A stretch of 63,578 nucleotides of DNA, counting the filler, from Sanchytrium tribonematis (lineage: Eukaryota): assembly GCA_018985235.1 (NCBI GenBank). It is 19 parts of 19 records of this genome, joined end to end, with 100 filler letters (N's around TTAATTAATTAA, not from the genome) between each part and the next. Parts side by side here need not be neighbours in the genome. Positions count along the whole stretch, not along the records: positions 2,502 to 4,896 come from JADGIG010001056.1; positions 4,997 to 7,387 come from JADGIG010001057.1; positions 7,488 to 26,767 come from JADGIG010000104.1; positions 26,868 to 29,257 come from JADGIG010001058.1; positions 29,358 to 31,744 come from JADGIG010001059.1; positions 31,845 to 34,223 come from JADGIG010001060.1; positions 34,324 to 36,701 come from JADGIG010001061.1; positions 36,802 to 39,164 come from JADGIG010001062.1; 11 more parts are not named here. One strand, written 5' to 3'. This document shows positions 2,797 through 46,523 of the stretch, one piece after another. The position numbers and the translations under genes were made by a program. The first letter of the stretch is position 1; each line of letters begins with the position of its first letter. The notes beneath the pieces are model-generated. The model was given only the letters and a program-made list of their open reading frames with translations, did not search any database and had not been told where the DNA came from.

Positions 2797-4681
2797 TCAT
2801 TTTATTTTATAAAATCCTTCATGATAAACTACCAATTCCTGCTGCACCATTAATTGCAAAATTTGAGCGACAGAGTGCTTAAAAGTTTTAAAGACTGGGC
2901 TCTTTCTAGCAGAGACTTCTATTTCTGATAGTTGAGCCTTGACTCGAGTTCTAATAATTGATCGCATGATATTCATGGCAATCTTCAGTTGCGGTGTAAT
3001 TTCTATTTCTTGATGTTCTTGCATTATTATGGTATTATCTTTCTCTAAATTGGAGTCAACAAGTTGCAAGGTATTACCAGATAAATGTAAAACGTCGTTT
3101 TTTTGCCAAAATTTGCAGTACTTTTTTATCATCAAGATAGGTATTTTAAGTTTCTCAGAGAGTTGAGAAAATGTTAGAGTAGGCGATTTCTCAAACTCAA
3201 GTATTATCAATCCTTCGATAGGTAAAACTTTAAATTCTTTGACAGTGTCGTCTATATTTAATTCTAGAAAGTAGGACCCACTTGTAATTGACCATACTAA
3301 TATTTTATGTTGATTAGATTGGGAAAACACTTTCTGGGCTGCTAAGTAAGGATTTTGTATTTGCTGAGGTAAATCAAGCTTGGTTGTAAATTCAACATTT
3401 GGCCAAAACCGCTGAGTTAGGATTTTCACATCAAATTGAAAAGGCGAAATGTTTTTAAATGTATGGCTGAATATCTCGGAGTTCTTAATATCTGCAAGCA
3501 TCTGATCTGAAGTTTTAAGGCAAACCTCTCCTAGACTCGACAAAGTCTGCTTCATAATTTCAACATCTTTTTTTATATTTTGAGATGTCAAGAGCTTGGA
3601 AGATAAAGATCGTTGGTACTCTCTCATAAACCCACCTCTGTCTCCAAATAGTTCAATTATATGCATTAAAAGCGTAGAATCGGTTGGGAATATTTTCTGG
3701 TTCATAGTTTTCACTAAAGCATCGTCACTGAATAAAAAATTAACGATGCAAGTGATTAAATTTTCTCTTTTCATAAGATTGGACCGAAAAAGTGCAACTA
3801 ACGGTTTCGGATTTTGATTCAAATTTGAAAAAAGCATATAAGAGGACAAATAAGTCTTGAGCATTTGATTGGTAGATTTGAGAGGTGATATATTGGCCGA
3901 CAAACTAAATTATACTAAAATACTATTTTAAAATTTCTGCTCTAGCTTCTGTTGGGTATGCTTGTAATTGTAAAAATTCTAAATCTCTATTATGGTAGCA
4001 ATCTAAAATCAGTGGTATTGAATGCAATCTATGTTCTAGAAAGCACTGCTCAAATATTCTATGAATCTCAATTTGTCCGTATAAAAAATTATTCAAAATA
4101 AAATTCAGTTTGTTTTCAAGACCTAATGTAATAGTATCTATAGAAATTCCTTTGACCGCTCTAATTCGTAGATCAAATTGTCTATAAATTTTGAATAAAG
4201 ACTTGACCTCGACAGTAGCCCACTCTTTGCAAGAGAATTGCTTTAATGTAGGAGCCAGTTGCCTTTTAGCAGGAGATTCATACGCTAATTGAATCATTGC
4301 AGTAAAATAGCTTTTAAAAAATTCATTAAGGCCATCAAAGGCATGGACCTTATATGTTTCCAGATAATTAATATCTTCCCAAGTCCAATTTGTGACAGAT
4401 TTCTTCACCATTTCGCCTACTTTGTTCCTGTCAACTAGTAAATTAATCACTCTAGAGTATCTATCAAGTATTCCAAATCTTTCATAAACGTGGTATAACG
4501 TATTTAAAAGAAGAGGGTCTAAATTAAAGCTCAATTTTTCGATGTAATCTACAAATTTAATGAATTGTTTTGATTTTTGATAATTAGAAATTTGCTGCTT
4601 GCTTATGATAATTTTGCTCTCTTCAAATAAGGCATGTCTGACGTATTTTCTCATTAATACATCGGATTCGTTTGAAGCCAT
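2797..4681 (-). CDS. APC2: Anaphase-promoting complex subunit 2 (cullin homology), two exons 4681-3924 and 3904-2797
   Basis: Cullin region LFGDRGGFMREYQRSLSSKLL and VKILTQRFWP, C-terminal winged-helix-like end; the two ORFs join in frame (AEILKYLSANISP) after removing a 19-nt intron. Confidence 0.75.
3905..3923 (-). other. 19-nt spliceosomal intron GTATTTTAGTATAATTTAG
   Basis: GT-AG; removal fuses ORFs 3923..4681 and 2797..3903 in frame. Confidence 0.85.
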
Positions 4682-4996
4682 GTTTTTAGTTTCAGAAATT
4701 TTTTACTAATTTTCAATATTTATTGGTATCTCACAAGCTTTACACTGATCTGAGTCGAATCTTCAATATTCATTTCTTCTGATGGATATCGGTAGATGTA
4801 ATATTTGCAAATATCTTTAGAGTTGACTTTGGCTAAATAGTTTTGATCGTTGTATATATTCCAGTCTAACACAGTTGAATATAGGCTCAAATGGTGNNNN
4901 NNNNNNNNNNNNNNNNNNNNNNNNNNNNNNNNNNNNNNNNTTAATTAATTAANNNNNNNNNNNNNNNNNNNNNNNNNNNNNNNNNNNNNNNNNNNN

Positions 4997-5529
4997 CAAA
5001 AGAAGTAATTCAAACAAGATCTTCTACAAAACCACGAGCCACTCAAACCAAATCTCCCATCTTGAAAATTAACAATTTATATCTTGTAACTACGCCGTTA
5101 TTGGAATTATTTATGGATGTTGCCAAACGGAATCCATCTTTCTCACCAATTGAAATTTGGAATCATTTATTTGCTCAATTAATCTCTGTTAGTCCATCAT
5201 ATGGCATGGTGGAATCAGGAAAGAATTTATTGACAGATATGTTGACAAAAATCAAAAAGAAGGGCAATGATTTGGTAAACAACATTAAAAGTTCTGAAAA
5301 TCAATATATTGCATTAACAAGATTAATTAATAATGCAAATCAACCATCTGATAATTTGCCATCTATTCAATATATGACTCATGATTTTCCATTTTTTTAT
5401 GAGTCGTGGTTGGATTTAATTGGAGAGAATTTTAATAAAATCAATCAAGAAATGAGAGAAAATAAGGGTTCAAGAAAAAGAAGACCAGAGACTGAAGCAG
5501 CATCAAGTAAGAAAGCAAGAACAAAGTAA
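4997..5529 (+). CDS. Hypothetical protein, 5'-partial, basic NLS-like C-terminus
   Basis: Frame open from contig start to TAA 5529; ends RKRRPETEAASSKKARTK. Confidence 0.5.
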
Positions 5530-5991
5530 TAAATATGTAATACGACAATGTGCATCTATTTGCAGGACCAATATAAATTTTTTGGTTTCAAATCAATGTA
5601 AAGCACGGGCAATTTTTCAATAAAAAAACAAGATTTTGGTAACATACATGCTAACATTATAAACTACCATCTTTTAATGTACTAATTGAAGATTTTAAAT
5701 GGTTTTTAAATTCAAGTGAATAGTCGTTGAATAGCATCAAAATCCACATTCTTTTGCCACTTGACAATCGTTTTTAAATACAAAATTGGTTAAAAGATTT
5801 GTGATTGCGACCATTTGCACAAAAGGCGTCATATTTCCTATCAAGATGATTTGAAATTTTCATGATAACTGGTATGTATCCAAAATGACCATATGCTGAC
5901 CTGAATTTCTCGAATGCTTGCTGAGCTAAACCCAAGGATAAGTGATTAAAATCGAACGAATGTAATATTTTACATAAAGTGTTTACCCATC

Positions 5992-6017
5992 CAATTCCCC
6001 CCCGGGGGGGACTTGTA
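5992..6017. repeat. C7G7 imperfect palindrome matching motifs that flank the pogo-like element at 36802-38010
   Basis: CAATTCCCCCCCGGGGGGGACTTGTA; compare GGGGGGGACTTGTA at 37957 and ATCCAATTCCCC at 37990. Confidence 0.55.
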
Positions 6018-6235
6018 AATCTCAACCAAATAACCTGTTCAATTCCCCAAGGGAAATTGCCCAATCGAAGTCCCATATTGTCATATTTACACCAGACCAG
6101 GAGGTAATTCTCATTGGTCTGGGACATGCAGTACTGAAAAAAGATTTTGTGATCATTCATTAAGTGCTCATGGAACATGTCCAGAACCAGTTGATACAAA
6201 TCCTGACGGCAATTAAATCAATAAACAAGTTTATT

Positions 6236-7132
6236 TTATTTCTTCCTCATAACAAATGCCTGGTAAAAGGTAGCCACTTCCCATTGCTCATCATCCATCA
6301 CTGGTTCATTTAAACCCATTTTCATGATTCTCATGTATAAATCTTTACAATGTGCATCTTTTAATCCATCAGAATACATTTTATCAAATGTTTTCTTGTA
6401 AATTAATTCTAAATTGAATTCATTGGCTAATGCCATAAATGCATCCCATGGGACAAGGTATTCTGGACATTCTTCAACGGCTTCATTTAATGTAAAATGG
6501 TATTGTCTACCAAAGACGGATTGCCATTGTTTTTCAATTCTGACATTATAATAATAATTGCCAAATACACGACCATTTGGATGTTGAGTGGCATTTTGGA
6601 GTCTATTGATGATGACATCTTCATTTGGGATAGTGGCAATCCAATATCCACCGGATTTGAGGACTTGTGAGATATTATAGAGTGTATTTTTAACACGTGT
6701 TTTGGATTCAAAAGCGTAATGGAAACAGAATTGGGAAGAGATTAAATCGAATGAATTGGGGGACATTAAAGTACGCCAATCATGTGCAAAACAGTCAAAT
6801 GCAGCATATTTGGCATTAAATGGCTGTCTCATTTCTTTGTATCTGCCAATATTATCTTGGATGGATTGATCTGCGATATCGATGCCCATGTAATATTCAA
6901 TGTTGTGATTATAAAATTTACGTAAATCACCACCTTTACCGCATCCTAGATCCAAGACATGGGCATCTTTGACGATAAATTGCATAATTAAACAACTTTT
7001 GATCCAATTATTGAATTTACGCAATTCAAAGATATTACTGAATTTACGTTGTTGGGTGGTTTGTTGTTTGTGTGTATTGTAGTGCTTTGCCACTTTTTTG
7101 GCATTTGAAGTTGGACTCGCTGGTCGTTTCAT
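6236..7132 (-). CDS. ABD1: mRNA cap guanine-N7 methyltransferase
   Basis: VAKHYN, LRKFNNWIKS, VLDLGCGKGGDLRK, FDLISSQFCFHYAFES, PEYLVPW. Confidence 0.95.
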   Translation of the reverse strand: MKRPASPTSNAKKVAKHYNTHKQQTTQQRKFSNIFELRKFNNWIKSCLIMQFIVKDAHVLDLGCGKGGDLRKFYNHNIEYYMGIDIADQSIQDNIGRYKEMRQPFNAKYAAFDCFAHDWRTLMSPNSFDLISSQFCFHYAFESKTRVKNTLYNISQVLKSGGYWIATIPNEDVIINRLQNATQHPNGRVFGNYYYNVRIEKQWQSVFGRQYHFTLNEAVEECPEYLVPWDAFMALANEFNLELIYKKTFDKMYSDGLKDAHCKDLYMRIMKMGLNEPVMDDEQWEVATFYQAFVMRKK

Positions 7133-7487
7133 GGAGTATTTTGGAAATCATAAATATGGCCATGAACTAACATCAAATGGCATTTAAAAGACTGAAACTC
7201 GATAGAGATCTGTAAAATATACTTGTTCTCATGTATGCCAATCAATCGACTCTGATATTCAACTGTGATTGGCGCAGTTTCAATTTCATTCAATCAAAAC
7301 ATCTCTCCACTGAAACAGATTCAAAAACATGAGTTTAACAAATTATGAATTACTCTGTTCTAAAACCACATTACCAGTCTGTCCATCNNNNNNNNNNNNN
7401 NNNNNNNNNNNNNNNNNNNNNNNNNNNNNNNTTAATTAATTAANNNNNNNNNNNNNNNNNNNNNNNNNNNNNNNNNNNNNNNNNNNN

Positions 7488-8061
7488 ATAATTGGAAACC
7501 TTTTTCATAAGTAAGCATCTTTTGTCCCTCAATTTTTGGATTATTTCCAAAAACACGGTATAAAAATGCAAGAATTTTTTGCACTAATTGCTGGTGGTGT
7601 TGCAAAGATTGCTGCGTATTGAATATCATGTTATACAATTCTTGTTGTTGAGTACTTAGTGATTGGATTTGCTGTTGCATTGAAGTCTGATGATATTGAA
7701 TTGTGCCAATTTGAGATGTTGTTGATGATTTAGTTTGATTTCGGCTGATCATAGACATTAAATCAGGTTGATCGCGTTTAAAATATTCATGAGTGAATTC
7801 CCATTCTTCCCCGATAACGTGCTGAACCTTATGAAAGCCATACATATTAAGCTGCCTAATAAAAGATGCAAAGTTATTGTGTTTGAAATATTGGGGAAGT
7901 GTTTGCATCGTAAAATGTTCCCGATCCAGTATTTTAAAGCTTGAACCATCAGGAGACCAGTCAATTGAATTTCCAGGCGTTTCTAGCATTGACAAAAGTT
8001 TCTTTAAAAATGCAGGAACATTATTCGGCATAGTTGTGTTTGATGACTCCGAGTGCTTCAT
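7488..8061 (-). CDS. HSF1: Heat shock transcription factor, 3'-partial
   Basis: VPAFLKKL...LPQYFKHNNFASFIRQLNMYGFHK...WEFTHEYF, followed by coiled coil QQLVQKILAFL. Confidence 0.9.
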
Positions 8062-8155
8062 TGTGATACGAGTTGAAATCAAATAAAATCGAAGGTAAAC
8101 TTTAAGTATTGAAAACTGAAAGCAGAATCTTCTAGCAGATGATCGAATTCGTTGT

Positions 8156-8170
8156 CGAACATTCTGGAAT
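8156..8170. promoter_or_regulatory. Perfect three-unit heat shock element upstream of the HSF gene
   Basis: cGAAc-aTTCt-gGAAt; second imperfect element aGAAt-cTTCt-aGCAg at 8124-8138. Confidence 0.55.
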
Positions 8171-8534
8171 AATGATCTGATTGGATCCCGCATGAACGAG
8201 ATTCGCATTTACACTGTACCAAAATTGCATGGATTTAATGAAGACAACAATGTTTATTTATTGAACCATATTCATTGTAGAATTGGATTTTATTGTCGGT
8301 TATGTATATTATTAGCGTAACTACTCAGCTGGAAATATAGAAAATTGCATCTCACGCAATATTTTTTCATAAGAAGTTCTATTCTCTTTTTGTCATTCAC
8401 TTGCTCTTCACAAATGAACATTTCTCAAAGAATTAACCTTATTTTTCGACAAAAATTATTCTTCGCTCCCAAATGTAGTAACATAGTACTATTTATAATA
8501 AATCAACATTTCTCAGATTGATCACACAAATTTG

Positions 8535-12033: not shown

Positions 12034-13813
12034 ATGCCCGCTGATCCTCAAAAATTAAAAGAAAAGTACCCAGACTTGCAAGTCGATCAATTGCTAGAAA
12101 AGTTCTACGCTTTGGACACCAAAAAGTCTGGCTCGTTGATTCAAAATGACGCCATCAAGCTCGTTCAATCTCTCCCAGAGAAATACGGATTTGACCAAAT
12201 TAATTCGACCTACAAACAACATGTTACTGGTGGTATGGAAATTGACGAGTTTATCGAAGTCGTTGCTGCTCTTAAACAGCAAGGTGTTCAAAAAAATGCT
12301 GCTGCCGATCCTGAAACCACCGCGCTGGTGGAATACTTCAATCACTTATTACAAGGTGATTCTGAATTAAGCTTGCCTTACCAGTCGGAATCCAATCAAA
12401 TTTTTGATGAAGTGAAGAACGGAATACTTTTGGCTAAAATGGCAAACAAAATTCAACCAAACAGCATTGACATTTCAAAGTTGACAAAAGAGCCAATGAC
12501 TGCTTTTCAAAGAACTGCAAACCAAAATGCAGTTGTTGCTGGTTTAAAGCCTTTAATTAGTGCAAATGTAGGTGCATCCGATATCGAATCCGGAAACTCA
12601 AAAGTATTGATTGGAGTCTTGAGTGCTCTTTACAAATTAGATTTGAGCAACAAAGTTAATATCAAAAAGACTCCAGAGCTATCCAGACTTGCAAAAGATG
12701 CGAAGGAAGATGTCAGCAAGTTGAAAATTGAAGAAGTTTTGGTAAGATGGATCAACTATCATACTGAAAGATCAAATGTTGGAAGATTTTGCGCAAATTT
12801 GAATGACTTAAAAGACGGTGAATTTTTAAGTATTTTGTTTGTAAGATTAGCCCTGTTGAGCAACATTCAATTGGGACCACATCCAATGAAAGAAAATAAC
12901 CCAACAAAACGTGCTGCTATTTTGGTGGACTACGCAGCAAAGTTAGGAGTAACTCAATTTACTACTCCAACTATAGTTGACCAACCCCAAAAAGTTTTGG
13001 TAGCATTTTTGAGCACCTTATTCAGTGTTCATCACTGCATTTTGTCTTTAAGCGAAAACGAGTTTTGCACAACCAACCAAAAATTGTTTCAAGAAAGTGA
13101 CAGAACTGTCAACGGATTCTTAGTTTGGATTAATTCTTTGATCAACAATGGTGCTAATCAAGCTAATGCTCAAATGATTTTGTCTTTTGAAGAATTGACT
13201 GATGGACAAATCTTAGCTCGAGTGATCGATCGAGTATCTCCAGGAACTGTTGAATGGAAGAGAGTAAATAAAAATACGACTAGCAGAATTAAAAAATTAG
13301 AAAACTGCAATTATGTTGTAGATATTAGCAAGAAAATTGGTGTTGTCAGCAATTTGGGCGGAAATGATTTGGCAGATGGAAACAAACCTTTATTATTGGC
13401 ATATTTGACCAAATTGCAACAATTGAACATGGAAAACTTTTCAAAGTCTGTAAAGTCAGAAGCTGAATTAATTGCATGGGCAAATCAATTTGCAAAATTA
13501 GGAGGCAGCAAAGAAGTTTTGGCTACATTCAAAGACTCATTTTTGAATACGAGCAGATTTTATCTTGCTATCTTGGCTGGTTTAAATAAGAGATATGTAA
13601 ACTGGAGTTTGGTTCAAGAAGGATTTGGAGATGACCAAAAGAAGGACAATGCTAAATATGCTATTACTGTTGCTGTTCAATTAGGTATTGCCACATTTGT
13701 AGGTGTTGAAGATTTAACAGAGACTAAATCTAAACAAGTAATATTAATTGATGTAGATTCAGCCTTGGATTGCTGCTATGATGAATGTTCAAAGTGGATA
13801 TGGAAAATATTGA
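12034..13813 (+). CDS. Fimbrin/plastin-like actin bundler (EF-hand plus four CH domains), two exons
   Basis: EEVLVRWINYH, WINSL, KLENCNYVV, GGNDLADGN, NAKYAITVAVQLG; spliced C-terminus ETKSKQIQPWIAAMMNVQSGYGKY* fits the end of CH4. Confidence 0.85.
13738..13756 (+). other. 19-nt spliceosomal intron GTAATATTAATTGATGTAG
   Basis: GT-AG, phase 0; restores a fimbrin-like last helix and gives TGA at 13811 overlapping AATAAA. Confidence 0.8.
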
Positions 13814-13830
13814 ATAAATTCATGAGTCGT

Positions 13831-17900: not shown

Positions 17901-19445
17901 CAAAAGCCATAAAAGCTGAAAATGAAAAATTGAAGCGTGACAAAGATCACGTTGAACAACAATTACAAACTCAAATTGACAAGTTAACCAATATTAATTT
18001 GTTGCAACAGCAAGTTAACACATTGAAGACTCAACTTCATAAAATGAATGATGATGAGTACGAAGAAACTCTTCCATTTTCACCTATAACAGCCGAAGAT
18101 AAAGGACATGTTATGACCAACACTTTATTTGGAACAAATATTAATTCCTCAACCCAAAAATTGGATGAAGAAAGTCCTGAAGCATTGCAATTAACCCAAA
18201 TCAAAGACTTATTGAAAAATCCCCAACTGGAATCAGAATTATTGAAAAACTTTATCAATTTACGTATCCCAGACATACCACCATTTATCTTGAATCTTCC
18301 CAATATTTGGGATATAACGAGCTCGGAAACTGTTCAATCTAGAAAAGAAAGCTTATTTCCTGCTCATACTTTGTGTGTTTATTTAATTAAAAAGTGGCAA
18401 CTTGGTCTGGCGACAAAATCATTTAATACAATTTTGAAGCAAATTGAAGATAAATTGGAGACTGATAGTTTTAGAACTTTGTCATTTTGGACTTCTAATT
18501 TGTTTGAAATGTCTTGCATCGTTAAAAGTGTCAAGCTGCAAAAAAACAGAATGACCAAGAGTCTTGATGCTCAAACTGCAAATTTGAAGAGAGATGTAAC
18601 TGATTTAAGCGAAAGTGGTAAAGAAATTTTAAAAATTCAAAATGAAATGGAGAGAATATTTTTAAAAGGTTTTCAAAAATTATATTCATTTTTAAGACAA
18701 AGATTTCAGAAATATGCAATTCCTTCAATTTTGGAGAACCAATCACTACCTGGCTTTGTCACAAAGGATGACGGCGGATTTTTTCAAAGACTCGGATATT
18801 CGTCGTCTGAAAAACATTCTGTTGAAGATTTAATCGAAAATCTAACAGAAAATGTTAGAATGCTTAAGGGTTACGCCATGGATGATTTGATTGTTGCTCA
18901 GATATTCGGTGAAATAATCAGACTATTGGGCATTGAGGCATTCAATCATTTGTTGATGCGTCGTGGTTTTTCAACATGGAAAAGAGGTTTATTAGATTTA
19001 TATAGGAATGCAAATTCAGTACAATGTTAGCCGTGTTACTGAGTGGGCTCGAAAAAATCAAGTTGCGCAAGCGAGTGACCATTTTGAAAAATTGATGCAG
19101 TGTGCAAAATTAATGCAACTTTCAAAGGCAATTCCTCCAAATCACGAGCTTTTTATAGAAGATTTATGTGAAGTCTGTCACCAACTAAGTGGCTCTCAAA
19201 TCCAAAAATTGCTGACTTTGTACACTGCTTCCGAATTTGACGCACCAATCCCCAACAAGTTGATTAATCAAGTAGCCCTTAAAATTAAGGACACTGATGT
19301 GATTTTGTTAGAGGTTCCAATTGAGTCCGACTTTTCATGGTTTGATAAACCAGATTATCGAAAAGTTAAAGCTATTTACAAGTATCTTCCACGAGACTTG
19401 GAAGATCATTCACCATTGACTTTAATGTTATTTAAATATGCCTAG
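14906..19445 (+). CDS. MYO2: Class V myosin (motor, IQ repeats, coiled coil, DIL domain), two exons
   Basis: GESGAGKT, NDNSSRFGK, DIFGFE, QLRACGVLETIRIS, IQ motifs; spliced DIL motif FNHLLMRRGFSTWKRGMQIQYNVSRVTEW. Confidence 0.95.
18987..19005 (+). other. 19-nt spliceosomal intron GTTTATTAGATTTATATAG
   Basis: Removal restores the conserved WKRGMQIQYN and joins ORFs 14906 and 19008. Confidence 0.93.
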
Positions 19446-24821: not shown

Positions 24822-25986
24822 ATGTTTGAATTTGACAGCTCGGACGACTTAAGCGAGCAATCATATAGTGAGAAGGATTTAAATTCATTACTTCATGAAA
24901 TAGGGACAAAATTACCCACAAAAGAATATAAAATATTAGAATTATTAGGGAAAGGCGGTTTCGCTCAAGTTAGGCAGGGTATTCACGTCAAAACAAACGA
25001 GACAATTGCATGTAAACAGCTTCTACGCAATAAACAGGACAGCAACCGACTATACCAAGAAATATCTATTTTAAGTGCAATAAGCACACATTCTTCTGTC
25101 TTACCATTATTAGAAGTTTTATATAATAGTAGTGAAATATGGCTGATATTTCCACTCGCAGAAAAGGATTTATTTGATTTTATTAGTCATAATGGTAAAT
25201 TACCGGAGGATTTGGCAAAATATTATTTTAAAACTATTGTTGATATTATCGCTTATTGCCACGCTAAAGATATTGTTCATCGGTATATTTTGTTTATTTA
25301 GGGACATAAAGCCTGAGAATATTATGGTGGATAAACGAGGAAATGTAAAATTAATAGACTTTGGATTTGCTGGTGTTGCAAAGAATTCTAAAAAATTAAA
25401 AACGTTTGTTGGATCTCCAGAATATGCAGCACCAGAGATTCTAAACTGCCAAGAATATGATGGAACAAAAGTGGATATATGGTCGCTTGGTTGTATATTA
25501 TACGTCATGGTAGTTGGCAAAGCGCCATTTCAAGGAGAACCATTCAGGATTTACGAGAAAATAATGAATACTGACTTTGAGCTGCCGTCGGATCTCAGTC
25601 AGGATTGCCAAAATCTTATAAGGAACACTTTGAAAAGAGATGCAGATCAGAGATTGACAACAGATGAAATAGCTCGACACCCATGGATGGCAGATGACAA
25701 ACATTCTATAAGTTACAAAAGAGCACTTGTTGATTCAAATTCGATACAAGCGGCCAAAGAACTTTTAAGCGCCAAAGAAACTGAACGGACGTCGAGGCCG
25801 AGTCGCATATTTACTGTAGCTTATCTTTTGCAAGAGAAGAAATTGAATGAAGAAATATTAATGTCTCCCAAGGAGAAATACAAGACTTTTTTTAATGCTC
25901 GAAATTCATCCAAATCACTAATAATAGAAGAGCCCAAAGAAATACTAAAAACCACAATTGTTGATATAATAAATGAGGAAGATTGA
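24822..25986 (+). CDS. CAMK-group (SNF1/MARK-like) Ser/Thr kinase, two exons
   Basis: LGKGGFAQV, IACK, spliced HRDIKPEN, IDFG, TFVGSPEYAAPE, DIWSLG. Confidence 0.9.
25283..25301 (+). other. 19-nt spliceosomal intron GTATATTTTGTTTATTTAG
   Basis: Splits the Arg codon of the HRD motif (CG|G); removal restores HRDIKPEN. Confidence 0.95.
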
Positions 25987-31844: not shown

Positions 31845-33095
31845 TTTAAGCATATTGGCAAATACCAATGAAAAAAGAGGATATCATAAAAACAGGATTC
31901 ATTACACATATGGGTCATTTTGTGTATAAAAACACGCCATTTGGACTTATGAATGCAGGCAAAACGTTTCAAAAGATTATGGATCTAGTATTTTCAGATT
32001 ACCTTAATCATGAGGTTTTCTGCTACCAAGATGATATATTAATTGCCTTGGATACATAAGAGAGACACCTAGAAATGATTAACAATGTATTCGACTTGTT
32101 AGAAAAATATAATTTAAAGGCATTTTGCAACAAGTGCACTTTTATGTTGAGTGCGACTTATTTGGGATTTTATTTGGATGGTCAAGTTGTCAAACCAGAT
32201 CCAGACAAAGTCAAGCCTATTTTAGATTTTGAATCGCCAACAAACATTAAGCAAATGCAAAGATTTTTAGGTATGGCTAATTACGATCGAGGTTTTGTTC
32301 AAAAATTTGCTATCATTGCTCAGCCAATGTATAAGTTACTTCGCAAAGGAGAGAAATTTTTGTGGGGAAAAGAACAGAATGAGTCATTTGAAAAGATCAA
32401 AGAGTTGATCAAATATCCCATCTTGCTTAAACACGCAGATTTCGAGAAACCATTTACATTAGAAGTGGATGCATGTGGTCATGGAGTCGCAGCAATATTA
32501 GAACAAGACGGACATATTATAGCTTTAGCTTCAAGATTGCTAAAAAATAATGAATTAAGATGGCCAGTTGGAGAAAAAGAGCTTTATTCAATTGTTTTCA
32601 CGTGTACAAAATTTAGATTTTTCATTGATACAAAGAACGACACTATTTTAAAAACAGATAACTTGAGTTTGAGTTATTTAAAGACAATGAAGATTAGTGC
32701 AAAGATTAGTCGATGGGTAATGTTCTTAATGGAATTCAATTTAAACGTATTTTATGTACAAGGATCTCAAAACAAGGATGCAGATCTATTAAGTAGACTA
32801 AATGACAAACTAGAAGATGTTTGTGCAGCGTTCACCAGAGGACAGAAGCGAAAGGCTGAAATTAAGGAAGCCATTGATTACAAGGCTGAATCAGGAAGTA
32901 TTGAATCAGATGCAGACAATTATTCCATAGAAAACACGTCCTTCGAAAATCAAACAAATGATGCTGAATTGACAGTAGATGAAATCAAATCGATGCACGA
33001 AGAAATGTAACATATTGGCATTGACAAAATTTACAAGTACCTAAGAGAAAGAGGATATCCAGTCACGAAAAAGAATTGCGGAGAAGCAACTTATT
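31845..33095 (+). mobile_element. Degenerate Ty3/Gypsy pol fragment (RT, RNase H, start of integrase)
   Basis: PFGLMNAG, YQDDILI, FLGMANY, VDACGHG, EKELYSI, TDNLSL, ADLLSR; in-frame stops. Confidence 0.92.
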
Positions 33096-36801: not shown

Positions 36802-38010
36802 TCCGGGGGGGAGTTGAGTATACTGTCGTAATTACTCACTCAAGTCCCCCGGGGGAGTTGAGCTGGTAAAGACTTTATTAAATGGATCTTTCAAAATATC
36901 ATTAAACTGGTACAAAGCAATGCTAAAAAGAAATGGATTGGTTAACAGATTAACTACACAATCCACTAAAAAAGACAATATGGAATTAGCAAATTCAGCT
37001 GCACAACACATTTATGATGTTAGAAAGAATCTGCAAATTATACGGAAGATAATATTTTATTTATGGATGAAACTGCTATTTGGATGGATGTTGGGAAACC
37101 AAAAACTGTTGCAAATGCAGTCCCTATTTTTAGTGGTTTCAATGAAAAAACAAATATTACATTTATGAATAGGAAAAATGGATCCAAAATTAAACCTTTT
37201 ATTGTAAATGCAACAACAAGAGCAGCTAAATTAGACACTATTGAGATCAAAGAAGATTGTGTTATGGGATATACTAAAAAAGGATGGGTTACTCAATCAT
37301 TATTAATCAAATATCTGAATTACATTTTATCATTTGGAAATGCATTGCTTATTTGGGATCATTGTTCAGCACATGGAGCTTCTAGAACAGAAAATATTAT
37401 GAGTGAATAGTTAGCAAATAAGAAAATCAAATGCTTATATGTTCCAAAAGGTGCAACTGGATATTGCCAAGTAGCAGATGTGGCTATTATTAGGTCTTTA
37501 AAGTGTAATATCAGAAAGTCTATTGAAAACTTTTATACTGAACAATTTATGGGAAAATTCTGAATTGTCAAAAGTACTAATAAAACCACATATTGGTAAT
37601 TTGAGAATATGGATTGTAGAACATTGGAATCAAGTTCCGCTTTCCATTATTGAAAATGGTTTGAAAACATGTCACTACAGTGAAAATATTGGAGATTTGC
37701 ACATGGCAAAAGTGAATGACCTGAGTATTTAATATTAATTTAGATATAGATTTTTTGTTTGACGAAGTCATGGCTTCTTTAGCTGGAGGTCCAGCATATT
37801 CTGGCCCATTTGATTTTTGCGATGATATTGAGATTACTGATGAAGGAATTCCAGTTTTGACTTTGAAAATCAAACTGGAGAGCCAGAAGTGATGATTTAT
37901 TCATTGTTAAGTGAAGAAGAATAAATATATTGATTTGATAGAACATTTATTAATATGGGGGGGACTTGTATTTTCATAGTCAAAATCCTATCCAATTCCC
38001 CACCAGGGTT
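36802..38010 (+). mobile_element. Degenerate pogo/Tigger-type (DDE_1) DNA transposon
   Basis: MDETAIW, LLIWDHCSAH, VPKGATGYCQVADVAI; frameshifts and stops; C/G-run motifs on both sides. Confidence 0.85.
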
Positions 38011-38666: not shown

Positions 38667-39164
38667 TCATTTTCTACACTTTTGACAATACTTATCATGA
38701 TCTTCACCATAATCCAAACACAATCCATGACCTCTGACACCACATCTACCACACTGGTGCCATTGTGTTGTAAACATTGGCGCGTTGCATTCAATGCAAA
38801 ATACATCAACCTCTTTTACATCAACTGTAGCATGCTCATACATGATTTTAAACATCTCAAAATGTTCATGAATATCTATATTAAAACTGAGTACCCATTT
38901 CCACCACCACTGATTCCACAACATCATCTGCTTCTAAATCAACTACACAAGTTTCATAGCCCTCTTCTTCATTGTCATCAATATCATACTGAATATCAAA
39001 GTGTCTTGGTGGTACAATATTAGATCCGTCTACTGCCCATGTAACTTAATACAATTGACCAATTCTATCATGCTTTGAAATGAACCAGTCTTCAGCATCT
39101 AATCCAAAACCGCAATTATCCGCTACTTTTTTTAACAAATTGGTTGTAATCTTACTTTGAGCAC
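38667..39164 (-). pseudogene. Degenerate acidic region plus PHD-finger C-terminus, probably transposase-associated
   Basis: CIEC...CGRC...HGLC...CQKC (C4HC3); the upstream frame has stops. Confidence 0.55.
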
Positions 39165-39264: not shown

Positions 39265-40961
39265 ATCGGGCAAGACTATTGGCTTAAAAGGTGGGCCACA
39301 GCGTACATATCAGTTAATTCATTTAATGATGATGGTTTAGAAGAGAAGAAAACTGTGGATGTCGACTTTTATTTGATTAGCTATATTGCAATAGGACTCG
39401 GAAATATTTTAGTGCAACTACTTTTTTTGGTAATACAATTTTTTGCTTCCATCAAAGCTTCTAGAGAAATACACAAAGTCCTTTTACAGCGAATTTTACG
39501 AGCCCCTGTCTCATTTTTTGACAAAACACCGCTGGGTAGAATTATTAATCGATTTTCGAGCGATATTCAAGTCTTAGATAGGGAAATAAGTTCTGTCTTA
39601 CGCAACTATTTATACGATGGAATTGGTGCAATTAGCATTCTGTTTTTAATCAGTTCAATTACTCCTTTATTTTTAATTGCTGTGATTCCAATAATATTTA
39701 TGTTTTACTATGTCTCATCTTATTATTTAAAGACATCTAGAGAACTTAAGAGATTAGACAGTATCACCAAATCACCAATCTATGCTCAATTTAGTGAAAC
39801 GCTCGCAGGATCTCATGTTATTCGAGCATTCCAAAAGGAGTCGGAATTTATTGCTCAAAATTATACCAAAATTGATACAAATCATCGCGCGTACTTTTAT
39901 TTGTGGGTTTGCAATAGGTGGCTACAAATAAGGACTGATTTCCTCGGTGCTGTTGTTGTTTTTTGTACGGGGCTAGCAATTTTATTGAGCAGTGGGGAAA
40001 TTGATGCTGGTTTAGCAGGATTGAGTCTATCATATGCTTTGACATTTACTGATTTGGTCATGTGGCTTGTCAGATATAATGCCTTGGTGGAAATGAACTT
40101 GAATTCTGTTGAGCGAGTTCGAGAATATATGCAAATTGAACAAGAAGCACCCGCAATCGTCAAATCAGCAAGACCCCATCAAATTGGCCATGGTCTGGAG
40201 AAATTAGGTGCACAAATCTCACAATACACTACGTACCAACTTCTTCACCAGTTTTAAAAGAATTGACATTTTCAATATCATCTCAAGAAAAAATTGGAAT
40301 TGTTGGAAGAACGGGTGCTGGTAAAAGTACTTTAGCTCTGGCTTTCTTTAGATTTGTAGAACCCACAATTGGAAATATTGAGATAGATGGCATTAACAAC
40401 AATTCTATTGGACTTCAAGACTTGAGAAGTGCGTTGACGATTATTCCTCAGGAACCAGTATTATTTAAAGGTACAATCCGATCAAACTTAGACCCTTTTA
40501 ACAAACACGACGACATGCAATTATGGAATGCATTAAAAAGAGTCCATTTTATTAATGAGACTGAAGACGACTCAAGAGAAATAACTTTGGATGTACGGGT
40601 TTTTGAAAATGGTAATAATTTCTCTGTAGGGCAAAAACAATTGCTTAGTTTGGCCAGAGCACTGATCAAGTGTTCCAAATTAATTATAATGGATGAAGCA
40701 ACAGCCAGTATCGACTCGGAGACTGACACTAAAATTCAACAGACCATCCGTACTGAATTTAAAGATTCTACAATTTTATGTATCGCTCATCGATTGAGAA
40801 CTGTCATTGACTTTGATCGTATTATGGTACTTGATCATGGAGAAATAGTTGAATTTAATACTCCATTTACACTGATTATGAAAGATAATGGGTTGTTCAT
40901 GAAAATGTGTAAAGAATCTGGAGATTTTGATTTTTTGAAAAAAAGAGCCACAAAAAGCTAA
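39265..40961 (+). CDS. ABCC/MRP (Ybt1/Ycf1-like) transporter, C-terminal half, 5'-partial, frameshift at 40174-40177
   Basis: FFDKTPLGRIINRFSSD, NSVERVREY, GRTGAGKS, NFSVGQKQ, IMDEATAS, IAHRL. Confidence 0.92.
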
Positions 40962-41029
40962 AAATAATCAAAGAATTCTTTTGTTTATTTTTGATACCCA
41001 ATAAAATTATGTGGAAATGAATATGCAAA

Positions 41030-41623
41030 TTATTTAACCCAATTCAAAGCTCGAAAAGTATCCAAAAAGGAGCACCAACTCACATAGGTCCCTCTCAAAT
41101 GCCGGTCACCCGTAAATGCACGCCTGCCATGTGCAATTCTATTATTCGCAAACACAACTGCTTCATTGTCTTGCAATTTGAATTCAATTAAATTGGACGA
41201 CAAAATCCTTTCATATGCATGCATACTTTTATACCAATTGTTAATTTGCGAGACTGTGGAACCAAATAAAGTGCCTTGAAAGGGAGGACTGTATCTAACT
41301 TGTTGCACCTTTTCATTTTTCATTGTAATTAATGGCCTACTGTATTTTAACCAATGTGAGTCAGAATGGTATTCATAGGTAACATTAAGTCTCGTTAGTT
41401 CGTAATGGTCATCAAATCTTTGCATTACTTCATTTGCAGCATAATGGCAATCCGCAAAAGTATTTGCTCCACCCTCTGCAGAGTTTTCAAGGCAATGTAA
41501 AATTTGAACACCTGGTGGATCTTTAAAATACATCAGATCCATATGGAGACCCAATTCTCCAGCAGTATATGCGACATTAATAGCATTTGTGGTATTTTTG
41601 ACATCCCAGGATTTTCCGTAAAA
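41030..41623 (-). CDS. Gamma-butyrobetaine/TauD-type Fe(II)-2OG dioxygenase, 5'-partial
   Basis: NVAYT...LHMDL...PPGVQILHC, FANNRIAHGR...RHLRGTY. Confidence 0.88.
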   Translation of the reverse strand, partial: FYGKSWDVKNTTNAINVAYTAGELGLHMDLMYFKDPPGVQILHCLENSAEGGANTFADCHYAANEVMQRFDDHYELTRLNVTYEYHSDSHWLKYSRPLITMKNEKVQQVRYSPPFQGTLFGSTVSQINNWYKSMHAYERILSSNLIEFKLQDNEAVVFANNRIAHGRRAFTGDRHLRGTYVSWCSFLDTFRALNWVK

Positions 41624-41723
41624 NNNNNNNNNNNNNNNNNNNNNNNNNNNNNNNNNNNNNNNNNNNNTTAATTAATTAANNNNNNNNNNNNNNNNNNNNN
41701 NNNNNNNNNNNNNNNNNNNNNNN

Positions 41724-41963
41724 CAAACACTTCAAGTAAATGTGCCTCTTGCAGGTGGAAATGTGACTTTTAACGTGCCTACGGCATTAGCAGGAAAGAC
41801 AGCTAGATTGGGAGTTATGAATCTAGAAGGTGGAAAGTCAGAAGTCGTTTTGAGCCCTCCATTGCAAATCAAAAGCGGAGGAAGTCCAAAACAAATTGGA
41901 TCTGCTAGTGTGGTCCACTTTCACTTCACGATCTTAACAATTGGCGCACTTGCCATGTTGTAA
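41724..41963 (+). CDS. C-terminal fragment with hydrophobic GPI-signal-like tail
   Basis: ...GSASVVHFHFTILTIGALAML*. Confidence 0.45.
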   Translation, partial: QTLQVNVPLAGGNVTFNVPTALAGKTARLGVMNLEGGKSEVVLSPPLQIKSGGSPKQIGSASVVHFHFTILTIGALAML

Positions 41964-42286
41964 AATAAATGACGGTACATTCCATGCATCGTAAAAATAA
42001 CTCATGTGACTCCAAAGCAACAAATCGTGAGTCACGATGCCATTCGGCAAATCGAATTTTAAACCGTCTATCAAAGTATTCAATGCAAATGACTATCAAT
42101 TAATGTCCGCTCTGGCTCTACCCTCCCCTAGATGCAGACAAATATTTGCTACATCTGCAATTTGGTGTTCATAAACCATATATCGTTTGGGAAGCACTTT
42201 GCCAAACATCCACATTTAAAGCGTCTTCAAGAAGCAGCGAGAATATTATTTCTTTAAAATATACCAATTTAATTTAATAAAATTTA

Positions 42287-42853
42287 TTAACTAGCAATTT
42301 GTGCATCACCAGCTGTCAATTTTGAATATTTTGTGTTTAATTCTTTGTAATCACTTAATAGCGTGTCGTAATCTTTTCTACCGCTTAGTTCTTTCTCGTA
42401 TCGTGCTACTTTTTGCAACAATGCCGTATAATCTTCATTAGTATGGCTTTGTTCTTCTTTCAATTCTGTCACTTGCTCCAAATCTTCCTCCATTGCAGAA
42501 ATCATTGTCTGCATTCTTAAAATGGAAATACCCATCAATAAAGTAAATCCGGTCAAGTAGAAGTTACGTTGAGCGTAAAACAACTTGGAATTGACAATTG
42601 CATCTAATCCTGGTGATTTTCCAATAGCGTGGTCTTCCTGATGTACTGCAAACATTCTATATGTTGCGTCAACGAATAAAATAGCTATAAATGCACTGGA
42701 AATACGTGCAAAATATAAAACTTGTTGAAATAGAGCAGATTTACCAAACCAAACTAGAAATTGACGTAGTTTGTGGATTGGAGTAAGCAGTAAGATCATG
42801 TAGCATACTTCCATAACGAGAACACCAAAGCATAAATCATGATGTAGAGCCAT
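42287..42853 (-). CDS. BAP31/Yet3-family ER membrane protein
   Basis: ILFVDA, KLFYAQRNFYLTGFTL, coiled-coil tail. Confidence 0.9.
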   Translation of the reverse strand: MALHHDLCFGVLVMEVCYMILLLTPIHKLRQFLVWFGKSALFQQVLYFARISSAFIAILFVDATYRMFAVHQEDHAIGKSPGLDAIVNSKLFYAQRNFYLTGFTLLMGISILRMQTMISAMEEDLEQVTELKEEQSHTNEDYTALLQKVARYEKELSGRKDYDTLLSDYKELNTKYSKLTAGDAQIAS

Positions 42854-42973
42854 TCTTTTTGATAGAAAGAGAAAGGGGTGACTTTTAAACGATTTTTTAA
42901 ATTTAGAGAGCATGTGGCAAATAAATTAGACTGCCCCAAAAAACAGAAAGTGGATAATCAACTCTGGGTTAAT

Positions 42974-43273
42974 TTATTCAGGTCCTCCACTCCATTGGCA
43001 ATCTGATTTTATGCCGGAATAAGCCGGCGCACACAGATAATCTCCCTTATGATTGCAGAACCCTTTCGACGTAGTGATTGATGGATCACTTTTCCCACAA
43101 AATCCGAATGCACTGCAACATTCACTTGGATGGCAAACAAAGACAACATTTGAGTGATAACCCCTAACTTGCTTTATGCTATTGAGTCCGCAATATTTCT
43201 TTGGGTGATATCTCTTAACTAACTTTTCAGTTGTTTTGGTTGTAGCAGCTGTGAGCAGTACTGTGAAGATCAT
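42974..43273 (-). CDS. Small secreted hevein/CBM18-type chitin-binding protein
   Basis: CG...C...CCSAFGFCG...C; short hydrophobic leader. Confidence 0.8.
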   Translation of the reverse strand: MIFTVLLTAATTKTTEKLVKRYHPKKYCGLNSIKQVRGYHSNVVFVCHPSECCSAFGFCGKSDPSITTSKGFCNHKGDYLCAPAYSGIKSDCQWSGGPE

Positions 43274-43487
43274 TGAAAGGGGGGATATAGGATGTAATAA
43301 ACAGGGGGGGGGGGGGGTAAGATCGTATATAAACGATGCGAAGCCAATGAGGAACCGTTTTGCACTTGCTGGTCTTGCTCACACCAATCAATCTATTAAT
43401 TTAATAATCTACTAATCAGATGATAAATTTGGAGTACTAGACTACATGCATCGCTTTTCAAAGTACAATTAATTGGATATTAATTTA

Positions 43488-43742
43488 TTAAGTGTGTGCT
43501 TTTTTATAACAAACTGACTTCGTACCAGAAAACTGTGGTTGGCAATTAGCATTGGTATAAAGCCACTTTAGGCCACAGTATCCGTATTTACTACATGACA
43601 GTTTTTCTGCACACATAAATATGGCATTGATAGGATAAGCACCATCTCGCTTTTTACCTTTGACGTTGTTGGGTCCGCACATACCGTGACGATTTTTGTA
43701 GTATGCTGGAGCAAGAGCATTTACTAGAACGGTGAATATCAT
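43488..43742 (-). CDS. Small secreted hevein/CBM18-type paralog
   Basis: CGP...C...SCSKYGYCG...CQPQFSG..SVC; tandem with the previous gene. Confidence 0.75.
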   Translation of the reverse strand: MIFTVLVNALAPAYYKNRHGMCGPNNVKGKKRDGAYPINAIFMCAEKLSCSKYGYCGLKWLYTNANCQPQFSGTKSVCYKKAHT

Positions 43743-44205
43743 GTAAATATGGAAAACCTTCTCGTTTTTATGCTTTTTAAAATCCTTTAGCCAATAAAAC
43801 CAACTTGGGAAATCTGATGAATGTCTGAGACTCCAATCAGTATTATAGAGATAAATAGTCTATCAGACGACCCAAAACGAATGTTTAATCTGTTTGAATG
43901 GTCTTAAAAGACATTTGGCTCTCACTTCATTTCATCTTTGCAAATTTCAAGGAGTAAACACATCAACAACAAATCTCTTTCAAAATGCCTCTTTATGAAT
44001 TACTCGTCATTACCCGTCTAGATACTACCAAACCACGATTAGCATCTCTCTTAAAATCCACTGCCATGCAAATANNNNNNNNNNNNNNNNNNNNNNNNNN
44101 NNNNNNNNNNNNNNNNNNTTAATTAATTAANNNNNNNNNNNNNNNNNNNNNNNNNNNNNNNNNNNNNNNNNNNNTAAATTGAACGATTCAGAATAATTTA
44201 TTGCT

Positions 44206-45286
44206 TTAAAAACAGCATCTCCACCAAGATTTTTTGGGTTCACTAACTTTTTCCTCCTCTACCGCTTTTTCCACATGGGGCGTCGTTTGCTAAATGAGAA
44301 AAAAATACTTGCAAATCTTTGAAGGCTTGGACTTTGAGCCAATCAAAGTCTAAATTAAGTTTAGTCTCCTTCGAAAATCCACTATTTTGAGTATTTGTAG
44401 ATATAGTGCTTCCGCCACCATTGCTTTTAAGCATGTTATCGAATAATTTGTATAAATATTGGTAATCTGGATCTTCCTCAAAAGCAAGCCTTCTAGCATA
44501 GGTCATGTACTCCGACAATTCTTTAGGTAAATTTGCACATAGCTCAGAAATTGGGGTTGCTTGTTTTTTCTCTCCAATTTTTTCGTACTTTTGCCTATTG
44601 GTAGCAGCTTTAAGACCCTGCCACGGCAATGAGCCTCTCAAAAAGTAAACAAAAACATGTCCCAGTGCCTCTATATCATCTCTTCGACTCTGTTCTCTAC
44701 CCAAATGTGTGTGAATAGACATATACCTAGCAGTGCCACTAAGGGACTTACGCTCCCTGTAAGGAATGTGTTGCTTAGTTCTTGGATCTCTGTAATGTTT
44801 GCACATTCCAAAATCAAGCAAAAATACAATATGTTGGGAAGAACCTCCTGGTCTTCCAATTAAAAAATTATCTGGTTTTATATCTCTATATATTAAATGT
44901 TTGTTGTGAAGCAATTCAATTCTTTTAATCATCTGTATAGCTAAGTACGCCGTTGTTTGTATGGTGAATTGCCTGTTGCACATATCAAATAGATCCTCAA
45001 GACTGGGTCCCAAAAGATCCATGACAAGTACATTATGAACGCCTTCTTGTCCAAAGTAATAGCAACTCGCTATCCCTTCGCATCCTTGTAATAATTTATA
45101 TGTTCTATATTCATCGCGTAGTTGGGGTGCATCGCTTTTTCTATGTTCAAATTTAATAGCGACAAATTGATTATTTGTTAAATTTATACCCTGGTAAATG
45201 ACTCCAAAAGAACCCTCCCCAATTCTTTTAACCACTTTATAATGTATACCTATTATAGAATTTGTAATTTGGTTTTGATTGCTCAT
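44206..45286 (-). CDS. Casein kinase I, Yck1/2/CK1-gamma type, two exons, ending WWRCCF
   Basis: [45 protein letters not shown]; spliced tail ends in the Cys-Cys palmitoylation motif. Confidence 0.95.
44290..44308 (-). other. 19-nt spliceosomal intron GTATTTTTTTCTCATTTAG
   Basis: Removal gives [27 protein letters not shown], the family-typical CC end. Confidence 0.88.
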
Positions 45287-45527
45287 TATTTAGAAAAAAA
45301 TCAAAATTTCAGCAAACGTGTTTCACTAGCCACTTCAAACGATGATCTTTCTCCAAGTGCCAAACTGTTGCATATTTCACAAAACGCTTTTTTAGACACT
45401 CGGTTATTATTATGAAATTATAGTTTAATATAGCGTTTCTGGCAATTGCTATATTACTTCGAAATTGATTTGTTTCAATAGTTTCGATATAAAATTGACT
45501 TAAATTTTTTTAAACTAATTAATTTAT

Positions 45528-46523
45528 TCAAACAGGTGCAATATCAAATAGCATAGAAACACTTTCACCGTGGTGGATTCTTCTTATAGCCTCACTCAAA
45601 AGCCCACTCACGTCAAAGACTTTCAATTTGGGACAACGATCCAAATGTTTAACTTGGGGAACAGAATTGCTTACAATTATTTGATCCAATGGAGAACTGT
45701 TAATTAGATCTATCGCATTGGCACTAAATATTCCATGGGTTACAATTGCATAAACTTTGGAGGCCCCGCTCTCCATTAACAAATGGGCCGCTCTGGTAAT
45801 GGTTTTACATGTGCTTCATTAGATAGAAATACTCTGCCATATCGTCTACTATAATGCAAGTTTTATTTTTAACTTCGCCCACTAGCAGCATATTTTGCCT
45901 AGATTTCGTTGTTTTTTTATGAATCAAAACAAACTCAAGCTCTAAATCCTCTGCTATTGCAGTGGCTCTCTTAGCGCCACCGGCATCCGGTGAGCATATT
46001 ACAGCATTTTTATAATCTTTGATACCTTGGATTTGATGTATCAGCAAAGGCTTGCAATAGAGATTGTCTACCGGAATGTCGAAATATCCTTGAAACTGTG
46101 CATCGTGAAGATCAAGTGTTATAATGTGATCACATCCTGCTGTACTTAAAAGATTCGCAATCAAAGTCCCACTTCTTGCAGTCCATCCACGATAATTAAA
46201 TGGTAAATTTGTAACAGGATCTAGTTCATCTCGACTGGCTGAATTTGAATCCGGTTGCATACCAGATGCCACTCTATGCCTTTCAACATCTTTCGGTAAT
46301 CTTGCATAAGGTCCGTCTGGCTGTCTCGAGTAAAAGAAGTGTGGTATCACAATAATCACCTTGTTAGCAGAAGCAATTTTGCATGAGTGAATCATTATCA
46401 TTAATTCAATAAACGCATCATTTACGTTTTCGGGACAAGTTTGTACAATATAAACCTCTTGGCCTCGAACAGATTGTTTAATTTCAACATTTGTTTCTTG
46501 ATTCTTAAATTTAGTCGATACAA
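45528..46523 (-). CDS. Ribose-phosphate pyrophosphokinase (fungal type with insertion after RQPD), 5'-partial, two exons
   Basis: DLHDAQFQGYFDIPVDNL, SPDAGGAKRA, spliced VDDMADTCKT, THGIFS. Confidence 0.93.
45814..45832 (-). other. 19-nt spliceosomal intron GTATTTCTATCTAATGAAG
   Basis: Removal restores the PRPP-binding loop DDMADT; contains CTAAT. Confidence 0.93.

What the first reader, a model, noticed from the sequence alone, without database searches (positions are those of the whole stretch)
3905..45832. Fixed-length 19-nt spliceosomal introns: six of six homology-anchored introns
Seen: six GT-AG segments on four separate contigs are each exactly 19 nt: APC2 3905-3923, fimbrin 13738-13756, myosin V 18987-19005, kinase 25283-25301, CK1 44290-44308 and PRS 45814-45832. 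Removal restores HRDIKPEN, DDMADT, WKRGMQIQYN and a CC tail; it also fuses the APC2 ORFs and gives a fimbrin-like C-terminus. No longer intron was needed for any gene. Known: introns this short occur in chlorarachniophyte nucleomorphs (18-21 nt), Stentor (15-16 nt) and Mikrocytos, while typical fungal introns are several times longer. Inference: an independently evolved, length-measured tiny-intron system in a fungus-like nuclear genome. Standard gene predictors would miss it because of minimum intron length settings. I cannot confirm it is unreported.
Basis: partly seen in the sequence, partly recalled or inferred. Interest (0 to 1): 0.92.

Follow-up and report, generated by a model that had tools for sequence, protein, structure and literature searches.

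The report
Tiny 19-base introns in sanchytrid fungi
Six genes of a fungus related to the algal parasite Amoeboradix are interrupted by 19-base segments with standard intron ends and an adenosine always six bases from the end; they are likely spliced out, which would make them the shortest introns I could find described for any fungus and would explain why public protein sets for this group hold cut-off proteins.

Summary
The six 19-nt GT-AG segments are real but lie on three contigs, not four. Four are anchored by homology here (PRS, myosin V, kinase, fimbrin); APC2 and CK1 are not. New: all six share T12, A14, T15, a branch-point-like motif fixed at -8 to -5. The genome groups with the sanchytrid Amoeboradix gromovi. 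In 13 of 13 close relatives found, ORF-called proteins break at the same intron positions. Their read-through tails decode most simply to 19 nt with the same motif, but one to 20 nt, so 'fixed' should read 'very narrow'. No RNA run was listed, so splicing is inferred, and no genome was held for a genome-wide count. Tiny narrow-length introns are known (Stentor, Mikrocytos, nucleomorphs). I found none described for sanchytrids, whose published genomes were annotated without introns. The scan earlier noted 25-32-nt introns in Rozella, none in sanchytrids. Verdict: a likely independent, apparently undescribed fungal origin of a known kind.

The parts
3905..3923 (-). 19-nt GT-AG intron candidate, phase 2, in an APC2-like gene; putative branch A at 3910
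   Evidence: Joins ORFs of 259 and 368 codons; motif present; downstream ORF matches APC2 from residue 78; junction not anchored
13738..13756 (+). 19-nt GT-AG intron, phase 0, near the end of fimbrin; putative branch A at 13751
   Evidence: 19 is the best excision length against a 123-sequence profile; spliced tail aligns with full-length P0148; relative P0147 ends one residue (V) past the same point
18987..19005 (+). 19-nt GT-AG intron, phase 1, in the DIL domain of myosin V; putative branch A at 19000
   Evidence: Joint best of 1,979 excisions; 2 of 2 relatives break here; listed X1 differences are synonymous in 18 of 19 upstream and 3 of 4 downstream cases
25283..25301 (+). 19-nt GT-AG intron, phase 2, inside the HRD catalytic loop of an AMPK/MARK/SIK-like kinase; putative branch A at 25296
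   Evidence: Only 19-nt cuts restore the loop; 6 of 6 relatives break here; family
44290..44308 (-). 19-nt GT-AG intron candidate, phase 0, in the C-terminal tail of a casein kinase I; putative branch A at 44295
   Evidence: Motif present; removal gives a tail ending in two cysteines; no homology anchor; that fungal CK1 tails end in palmitoylated cysteines is recalled
45814..45832 (-). 19-nt GT-AG intron, phase 2, in the PRPP-binding motif of PRPP synthetase; putative branch A at 45819
   Evidence: Best of 1,297 excisions, 469.9 bits against 318.3 unspliced; 4 of 4 close relatives break here
37725..37743 (+). additional 19-nt GT-AG candidate with the same motif, joining frames of 74 and 48 codons behind a broken DDE-transposase-like ORF
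   Evidence: Found by unbiased scan; no homology anchor
38876..38894 (-). additional 19-nt GT-AG candidate with the same motif, joining frames of 50 and 68 codons (weak zinc-finger-like downstream part)
   Evidence: Pfam hits all below cut-off
597..1334 (-). U1A/U2B''-like snRNP protein gene (major spliceosome component encoded in the window)
   Evidence: Best PDB matches are U1A (1.4e-20) and U2B'' (8.5e-19)

Best explanation
These 19-base GT-AG segments share a T-N-A-T motif whose A lies six bases from the 3' end, and they are likely U2-type introns that the ordinary spliceosome would remove, in a genome that groups with the sanchytrid fungus Amoeboradix gromovi. Shown: the boundaries, the motif position, the restored conserved motifs in four genes, and breaks at the same positions in relatives. 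Inferred mechanism: U1/U6 read the GT(A)T donor, U2 pairs with the motif at nt 11-15, A14 attacks G1 to close a 14-nt lariat, and the AG five bases later is used without scanning. The near-constant length would then be the sum of a fixed branch-to-AG spacing and a minimum donor-to-branch distance, eroded to its floor in a compact, AT-rich genome. An occasional extra base goes 5' of the branch point (the 20-nt case), as in Stentor 15/16-nt introns.
For: Excision tests. T12, A14, T15 invariant in 6 of 6; an aligned T-N-A-Y arises in 2.5e-5 of 200,000 shuffles of the interiors; interior GC 11%. 13 of 13 close relatives break at the same points: PRS 4, kinase 6, myosin 2, fimbrin 1. Five-residue tails in P0001, P0003, P0128 and P0126/P0129 fit 19 nt as the only length under 24 with the motif; myosin tails P0133 and P0134 fit 19 as the only length under 22; P0131 fits 20. 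A five-residue, motif-compatible tail arises in about 0.5% of random AT-rich longer introns. Myosin V looks under purifying selection on both sides of the break. Spliceosome genes: U1A/U2B'' in the window; Prp8, Brr2, SF3B1, U2AF, U1-70K and BBP rows in the published A. gromovi annotation. In Stentor the branch A is also at -6 (10th of 15, 11th of 16; PMC9505925).
Against: No RNA evidence of splicing or of the lariat. Only 63.6 kb of one genome was seen. Relatives' lengths are decoded from peptides, not read from DNA, and longer introns (24 nt or more) remain formally compatible. Four relatives end at the split residue and one (P0147) one residue past it; these five give no length. APC2 and CK1 are unanchored. 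For fimbrin 11 non-GT-AG cuts score higher. The motif was defined after the fact, and 9 of 51 AT-rich GT..AG 19-mers in the window carry it (the true ones are included). In-frame introns (18, 21 nt) were checked only in three genes.
Confidence: 0.8

Rival explanations
1. The introns are real, but the genome-wide length distribution is broad; 19 nt is only a mode or a small-sample effect, and longer introns occur elsewhere.
For: One relative decodes to 20 nt; lengths of 24 nt or more cannot be excluded for the others; only one window seen; some nucleomorphs spread over 18-23 nt (PMC4494063).
Against: 8 of 8 credible candidates in the window are 19 nt, and no gene examined needed a longer one; most domain-bearing ORFs are uninterrupted.
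Confidence: 0.12
2. The segments are assembly errors or insertions in decaying gene copies, not introns.
For: The window holds at least one frame break that is not an intron (ABC transporter near 40175, shared by run X1, 7 of 12 downstream differences non-synonymous).
Against: Same break positions in 13 of 13 relatives at 64-86% protein identity; identical length, GT-AG ends and motif; X1 contigs bridge the three contig-4 sites without gaps (X1 may be the source sample); mostly synonymous change in myosin V.
Confidence: 0.03
3. The segments are bypassed without the spliceosome, by ribosomal frameshifting or hopping (19 = 3n+1), or by excision from DNA.
For: All are 3n+1 long; no RNA was seen; no joint in DNA was looked for beyond one run.
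Against: The profile scores favour removal of the full 19 nt over a 1-nt shift (PRS 469.9 against 456.8; myosin 253.9 against 244.2). Three phases are used. The 20-nt case needs another shift. GT-AG plus a branch motif and spliceosome genes point to splicing. No DNA joints in X1.
Confidence: 0.03

Closest known systems
Stentor coeruleus 15-16-nt introns (PMC9505925; passages read)
   Same: GT-AG, AU-rich, two neighbouring lengths, putative branch A six bases from the 3' end in both lengths, core spliceosome kept
   Different: Ciliate, 8,806 introns, branch A at nt 10-11; here a fungus, intron-poor, branch A at nt 14 with a conserved T two bases before it
Mikrocytos mackini 16-17-nt introns (PMC10245619; section 7 read)
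   Same: Parasite, few introns (224), one dominant length with a rare +1 class, conserved sequence
   Different: Rhizarian; reduced spliceosome (17-19 proteins); none in metabolic genes, whereas here PRPP synthetase has one and A. gromovi keeps U1-70K, U2AF and BBP rows
Chlorarachniophyte nucleomorph 18-23-nt introns (PMC4494063, PMC2483917; passages read)
   Same: Modal length 19 nt in Bigelowiella natans (70.3%), GT-AG, AT-rich, positions conserved between species
   Different: Relict endosymbiont nucleus, intron-dense, almost no recognisable branch consensus (1.4% match to WCTRAY in B. natans); here a main nucleus, sparse introns, fixed T-N-A-Y
Microsporidian introns, Encephalitozoon cuniculi 22-76 nt (PMC3629993; passages read)
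   Same: Fungal relatives, reduced genome, GT-AG, strict branch motif
   Different: Longer and variable; sanchytrids are placed sister to Blastocladiomycota (PMC8371127), so shortening would be independent
Myxozoan and dicyemid short introns, median 22-27 nt (PMC13644364; passages read)
   Same: Opisthokont parasites with ultra-short introns and putative branch A near the AG
   Different: Animals, broader range (20-27 nt and more), branch A position moves with length

Membership tests
U2-type (major) spliceosomal intron | GT donor and AG acceptor | tested here: met
   6 of 6
U2-type (major) spliceosomal intron | Removal restores a conserved reading frame without loss or gain of residues | tested here: met
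   Met for PRS, myosin V, kinase and fimbrin; inconclusive for APC2 and CK1
U2-type (major) spliceosomal intron | Branch-point adenosine in a YTNAY-like motif near the 3' end | tested here: met
   Sequence level only: T-N-A-T at -8 to -5 in 6 of 6; use as branch point not shown
U2-type (major) spliceosomal intron | Major spliceosome encoded by the organism | tested here: inconclusive
   U1A/U2B'' in the window; core proteins listed for A. gromovi; no snRNA in this window; this genome not held
U2-type (major) spliceosomal intron | Excised from RNA via a lariat | not testable with these tools
   No RNA holder listed
Tiny narrow-length intron systems (Stentor, Mikrocytos, nucleomorph type) | Nearly all introns of the genome within one to a few lengths under about 23 nt | tested here: inconclusive
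   8 of 8 candidates in 63.6 kb are 19 nt; relatives decode to 19 or 20; no genome-wide count possible
Strictly single-length system | No length other than 19 nt in the lineage | tested here: not met
   Relative P0131 fits 20 nt or 28 nt and more, not 19
Sanchytriomycota (host lineage) | Groups with named sanchytrids in protein trees | tested here: met
   One gene: PRS clade with A. gromovi 100/100 on a long branch, 22 rows, no blastocladiomycete included; A. gromovi is the only named close hit for PRS, kinase and myosin V

The most novel reading that the evidence does not exclude
The whole phylum Sanchytriomycota splices by geometry: a 13-nt donor-to-branch arm and a 5-nt branch-to-AG arm give 19(-20)-nt introns, the shortest modal length in fungi or animals, with the second-step factors Slu7 and Prp18 lost because the acceptor docks without them; about a thousand genes per genome are then mis-annotated as fragments.
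Probability: 0.3. Interest if true: 0.8.

Novelty: new member of a known kind. Interest (0 to 1): 0.62.

Why it matters
It adds a fungal and apparently independent origin to the short list of lineages that reached the lower size limit of spliceosomal introns, with a visible branch motif at the same -6 position as in Stentor. That makes the question of what sets the minimum intron length testable by comparing a 14-nt with a 10-nt lariat. It also has a practical cost: sanchytrid proteomes were called without introns, so proteins such as myosin V, a kinase and PRPP synthetase are held as fragments. Gene-loss inventories and phylogenomic sets for this phylum may need redoing. Six introns in 63.6 kb would scale to roughly 1,000 in a 10-11 Mb genome (extrapolation).

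Tried and rejected
No whole genome held. No RNA holder listed; this is no evidence either way. Run X1 (DNA contigs, perhaps the source sample) showed no joints. DNA of relatives could not be obtained: the metagenome scan gave 6 loci of distant PRS homologues only, 35-57% identical; genome and viral scans with the kinase found none. Whether the intron positions are ancestral is open: one of those 6 loci shows the PRS motif uninterrupted, the rest were not resolved. APC2 junction: PDB, Pfam, ESM Atlas and a single-sequence model (pLDDT 41) with Foldseek gave nothing. Plain motif counts by length give only a modest excess at 19 (90 against 61.5 +/- 9.7 for GTA..HAG, none for stricter donors). Rfam: no match in the window. 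In-frame introns: 7 insertions of 4 residues or more in myosin V, fimbrin and PRS; two had a nearby GT-AG (24 nt without motif; 12 nt with motif), neither followed further. The ABC transporter break was considered as a 14-nt intron and rejected in favour of a one-base break in a decaying copy. Minor (U12) introns were not considered further: donors do not fit the recalled U12 consensus.
Full report
Observation. The window is 19 contigs joined by spacers, 31-37% GC, gene-dense and mostly uninterrupted. All six segments are at the stated places, 19 nt long, GT..AG. They sit on three contigs, not four. Their phases are 2, 0, 1, 2, 0 and 2, so no single frame trick accounts for them.

Do the cuts follow from homology? 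I scored every frame-restoring excision near each site against profiles built from homologues. PRS: the 19-nt GT-AG cut is the best of 1,297 (469.9 bits; best other length 461.3; unspliced 318.3; 112 homologues). Myosin V: joint best of 1,979 with four slide-equivalents, the next GT/GC-AG cut at rank 187 (12 homologues). Kinase: among all cuts of 1-99 nt only five slide-equivalent 19-nt cuts restore the catalytic loop, one of them GT-AG. Fimbrin is weaker: 19 is the best length, the GT-AG cut ranks 12 of 3,601, and the spliced tail aligns with full-length P0148. APC2 and CK1 could not be anchored; they rest on frame fusion or a two-cysteine tail plus the shared motif. So 4 of 6 are anchored.

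Aligned, the six have T at 12, A at 14 and T at 15, that is T-N-A-T with the A six bases from the 3' end. Shuffling each interior gives an aligned T-N-A-Y anywhere in 2.5e-5 of 200,000 trials, and three invariant columns of any kind in 1.2%. In the background 17 of 310 GT..AG 19-mers have the motif, 9 of 51 among AT-rich ones (true cases included). It matches the general branch consensus WCTRAYN (PMC2483917, passages), and the putative branch A of Stentor also lies at -6 (PMC9505925, passages). A scan of all lengths from 10 to 120 nt for cuts that join open frames gave 350 candidates; 29 have the motif, 6 of them at 19 nt and at most 1 at any other length. Two of the six are new (37725-37743 and 38876-38894) and unanchored. 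Without filters, 19 nt does not stand out.

What organism? The PRS search gave four proteins at 78-80% identity and then a drop to about 50%, mostly fungi. The named one is Amoeboradix gromovi, as for the kinase and myosin V. In a 22-row PRS tree the window and these four form a clade with support 100/100 (one gene, no blastocladiomycete). The window is therefore from a sanchytrid or close kin. Sanchytrids are described as algal parasites with 10-11 Mb genomes of about 35% GC, sister to Blastocladiomycota (PMC8371127, passages).

Relatives as a natural test. Their proteins were called without introns, so they run into the intron up to the first stop. All 13 close relatives found break at the window's positions: PRS 4 of 4, kinase 6 of 6, myosin V 2 of 2, fimbrin 1 of 1. 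I asked which lengths of 8-40 nt fit each tail together with GT, AG and the conserved next exon (8 relatives with tails of three or more residues, plus 2 window controls; P0002, P0004, P0127, P0130 and P0147 end at or one residue past the split and were left out). The window's own myosin tail returns only 19, a positive control. Five-residue tails (P0001, P0003, P0128, P0126 and P0129) need at least 19 nt, and 19 is the only length below 24 that also has the motif. The myosin tails fit 19 as the only motif-bearing length below 22. P0131 does not fit 19: it fits 20, with the motif again at -6, or 28 and more. By simulation a five-residue, motif-compatible tail arises in about 0.5% of longer AT-rich introns. 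Three such tails differ from the window's; P0126/P0129 repeat the window's peptide and are not independent. These are decodings from peptides, not DNA.

Against artefact. Contigs of DNA run X1 bridge the three sites on the long contig with no gap (X1 may be the source sample). Of the 40 of 109 differences listed, those in myosin V are synonymous in 18 of 19 cases before and 3 of 4 after the intron. In contrast an ABC transporter in the window has a one-base break shared by X1 and 7 of 12 non-synonymous differences, so it is likely a decaying copy.

Machinery and mechanism. The window encodes a U1A/U2B''-like protein. The published A. gromovi annotation has rows for Prp8, Brr2, SF3B1, U2AF, U1-70K and BBP (PMC8371127 supplement file 4, searched). 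It has none for the term SLU7 or for the two KEGG numbers that I recall for Slu7 and Prp18; in an ORF-only annotation this is a lead, not a loss. In yeast, Slu7/Prp18 are not essential when the branch-to-acceptor distance is short (PMC3683925, passages). I infer normal U2-type splicing with a 14-nt lariat, a fixed branch-to-AG spacing and a donor arm at its minimum; the erosion-to-a-threshold model is discussed in PMC10245619 (section 7). Whether length is actively measured is not tested.

What is known. Tiny narrow-length introns are described in Stentor (15-16 nt), Mikrocytos (16-17), nucleomorphs (18-23), myxozoans and dicyemids (median 22-27) and microsporidia (22-76 in E. cuniculi). For sanchytrids I found nothing: searches gave 8, 2, 1, 1, 1 and 3 papers; searches were read as listings. 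In PMC8371127 and PMC10459994 'intron' occurs once each, in a reference title. PMC8371127 called ORFs with TransDecoder on genomic contigs (section 18). Its main supplementary PDF and one spreadsheet were too large to read and one PDF had no text. PMC9730499 and PMC8476143 (passages) say nothing on sanchytrid introns. Most subscription journals are not searched, so a mention in print cannot be excluded. Earlier notes of this scan cover 25-32-nt introns in Rozella and none in sanchytrids; I did not test them.

Verdict. Very likely real spliceosomal introns of about 19 nt, conserved across sanchytrids, with a fixed branch motif; narrow rather than strictly fixed in length; a new member of a known kind, apparently undescribed, awaiting RNA and a genome-wide count.

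Noticed in passing
window:57971-58510 (+) and 61251-63578 (-): An axonemal dynein light chain domain (Pfam PF10211, 5.7e-30) and a dynein heavy chain N-terminal region, although PMC8371127 states that sanchytrids lack axonemal dyneins. The heavy chain type was not determined.
   Followed up: no
window:40140-40254 (+): ABC transporter with a one-base frame break that is not an intron; run X1 shares it and shows 7 of 12 non-synonymous differences downstream, likely a decaying copy.
   Followed up: yes
window:37725-37743 (+) and 38876-38894 (-): Two further 19-nt candidates with the branch motif in a contig with a broken DDE-transposase-like ORF; if real, mobile-element genes carry these introns too.
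   Followed up: partly
window:9918-11687 (+): CLC chloride channel ORF begins 30 bases after the Rps26 stop with no ATG until about codon 35, and no GT-AG exon was evident upstream.
   Followed up: partly
proteins P0125, P0132, P0297, P0304: The window's kinase, myosin V and APC2 pieces are held in the public protein collection as separate fragments cut at the introns.
   Followed up: yes
PMC8371127 supplement file 4, rows 1135-1136: A. gromovi SF1/BBP is annotated as two neighbouring ORFs on one contig, perhaps another gene split by an uncalled intron.
   Followed up: no
window:14906-25983 and P0128, P0133, P0127, P0134: Myosin V and the kinase are neighbours in the window and share a contig in A. 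gromovi; the unnamed relatives P0127 and P0134 both list a longest contig of 67,895 bases.
   Followed up: no
protein P0126: At 86% protein identity the read-through tail of the kinase intron is the same five residues as in the window, hinting at sequence constraint inside the intron.
   Followed up: no
window:26869-28659 and 32060-33007 (+): Broken LTR-retrotransposon-like pol remnants (protease, reverse transcriptase, RNase H).
   Followed up: no
window:29359-30315, 56397-57851, 42977-43378, 43491-43859 (-): Two leucine-rich-repeat proteins with signal-peptide-like starts and two small chitin-binding proteins, possible surface families of a parasite.
   Followed up: no
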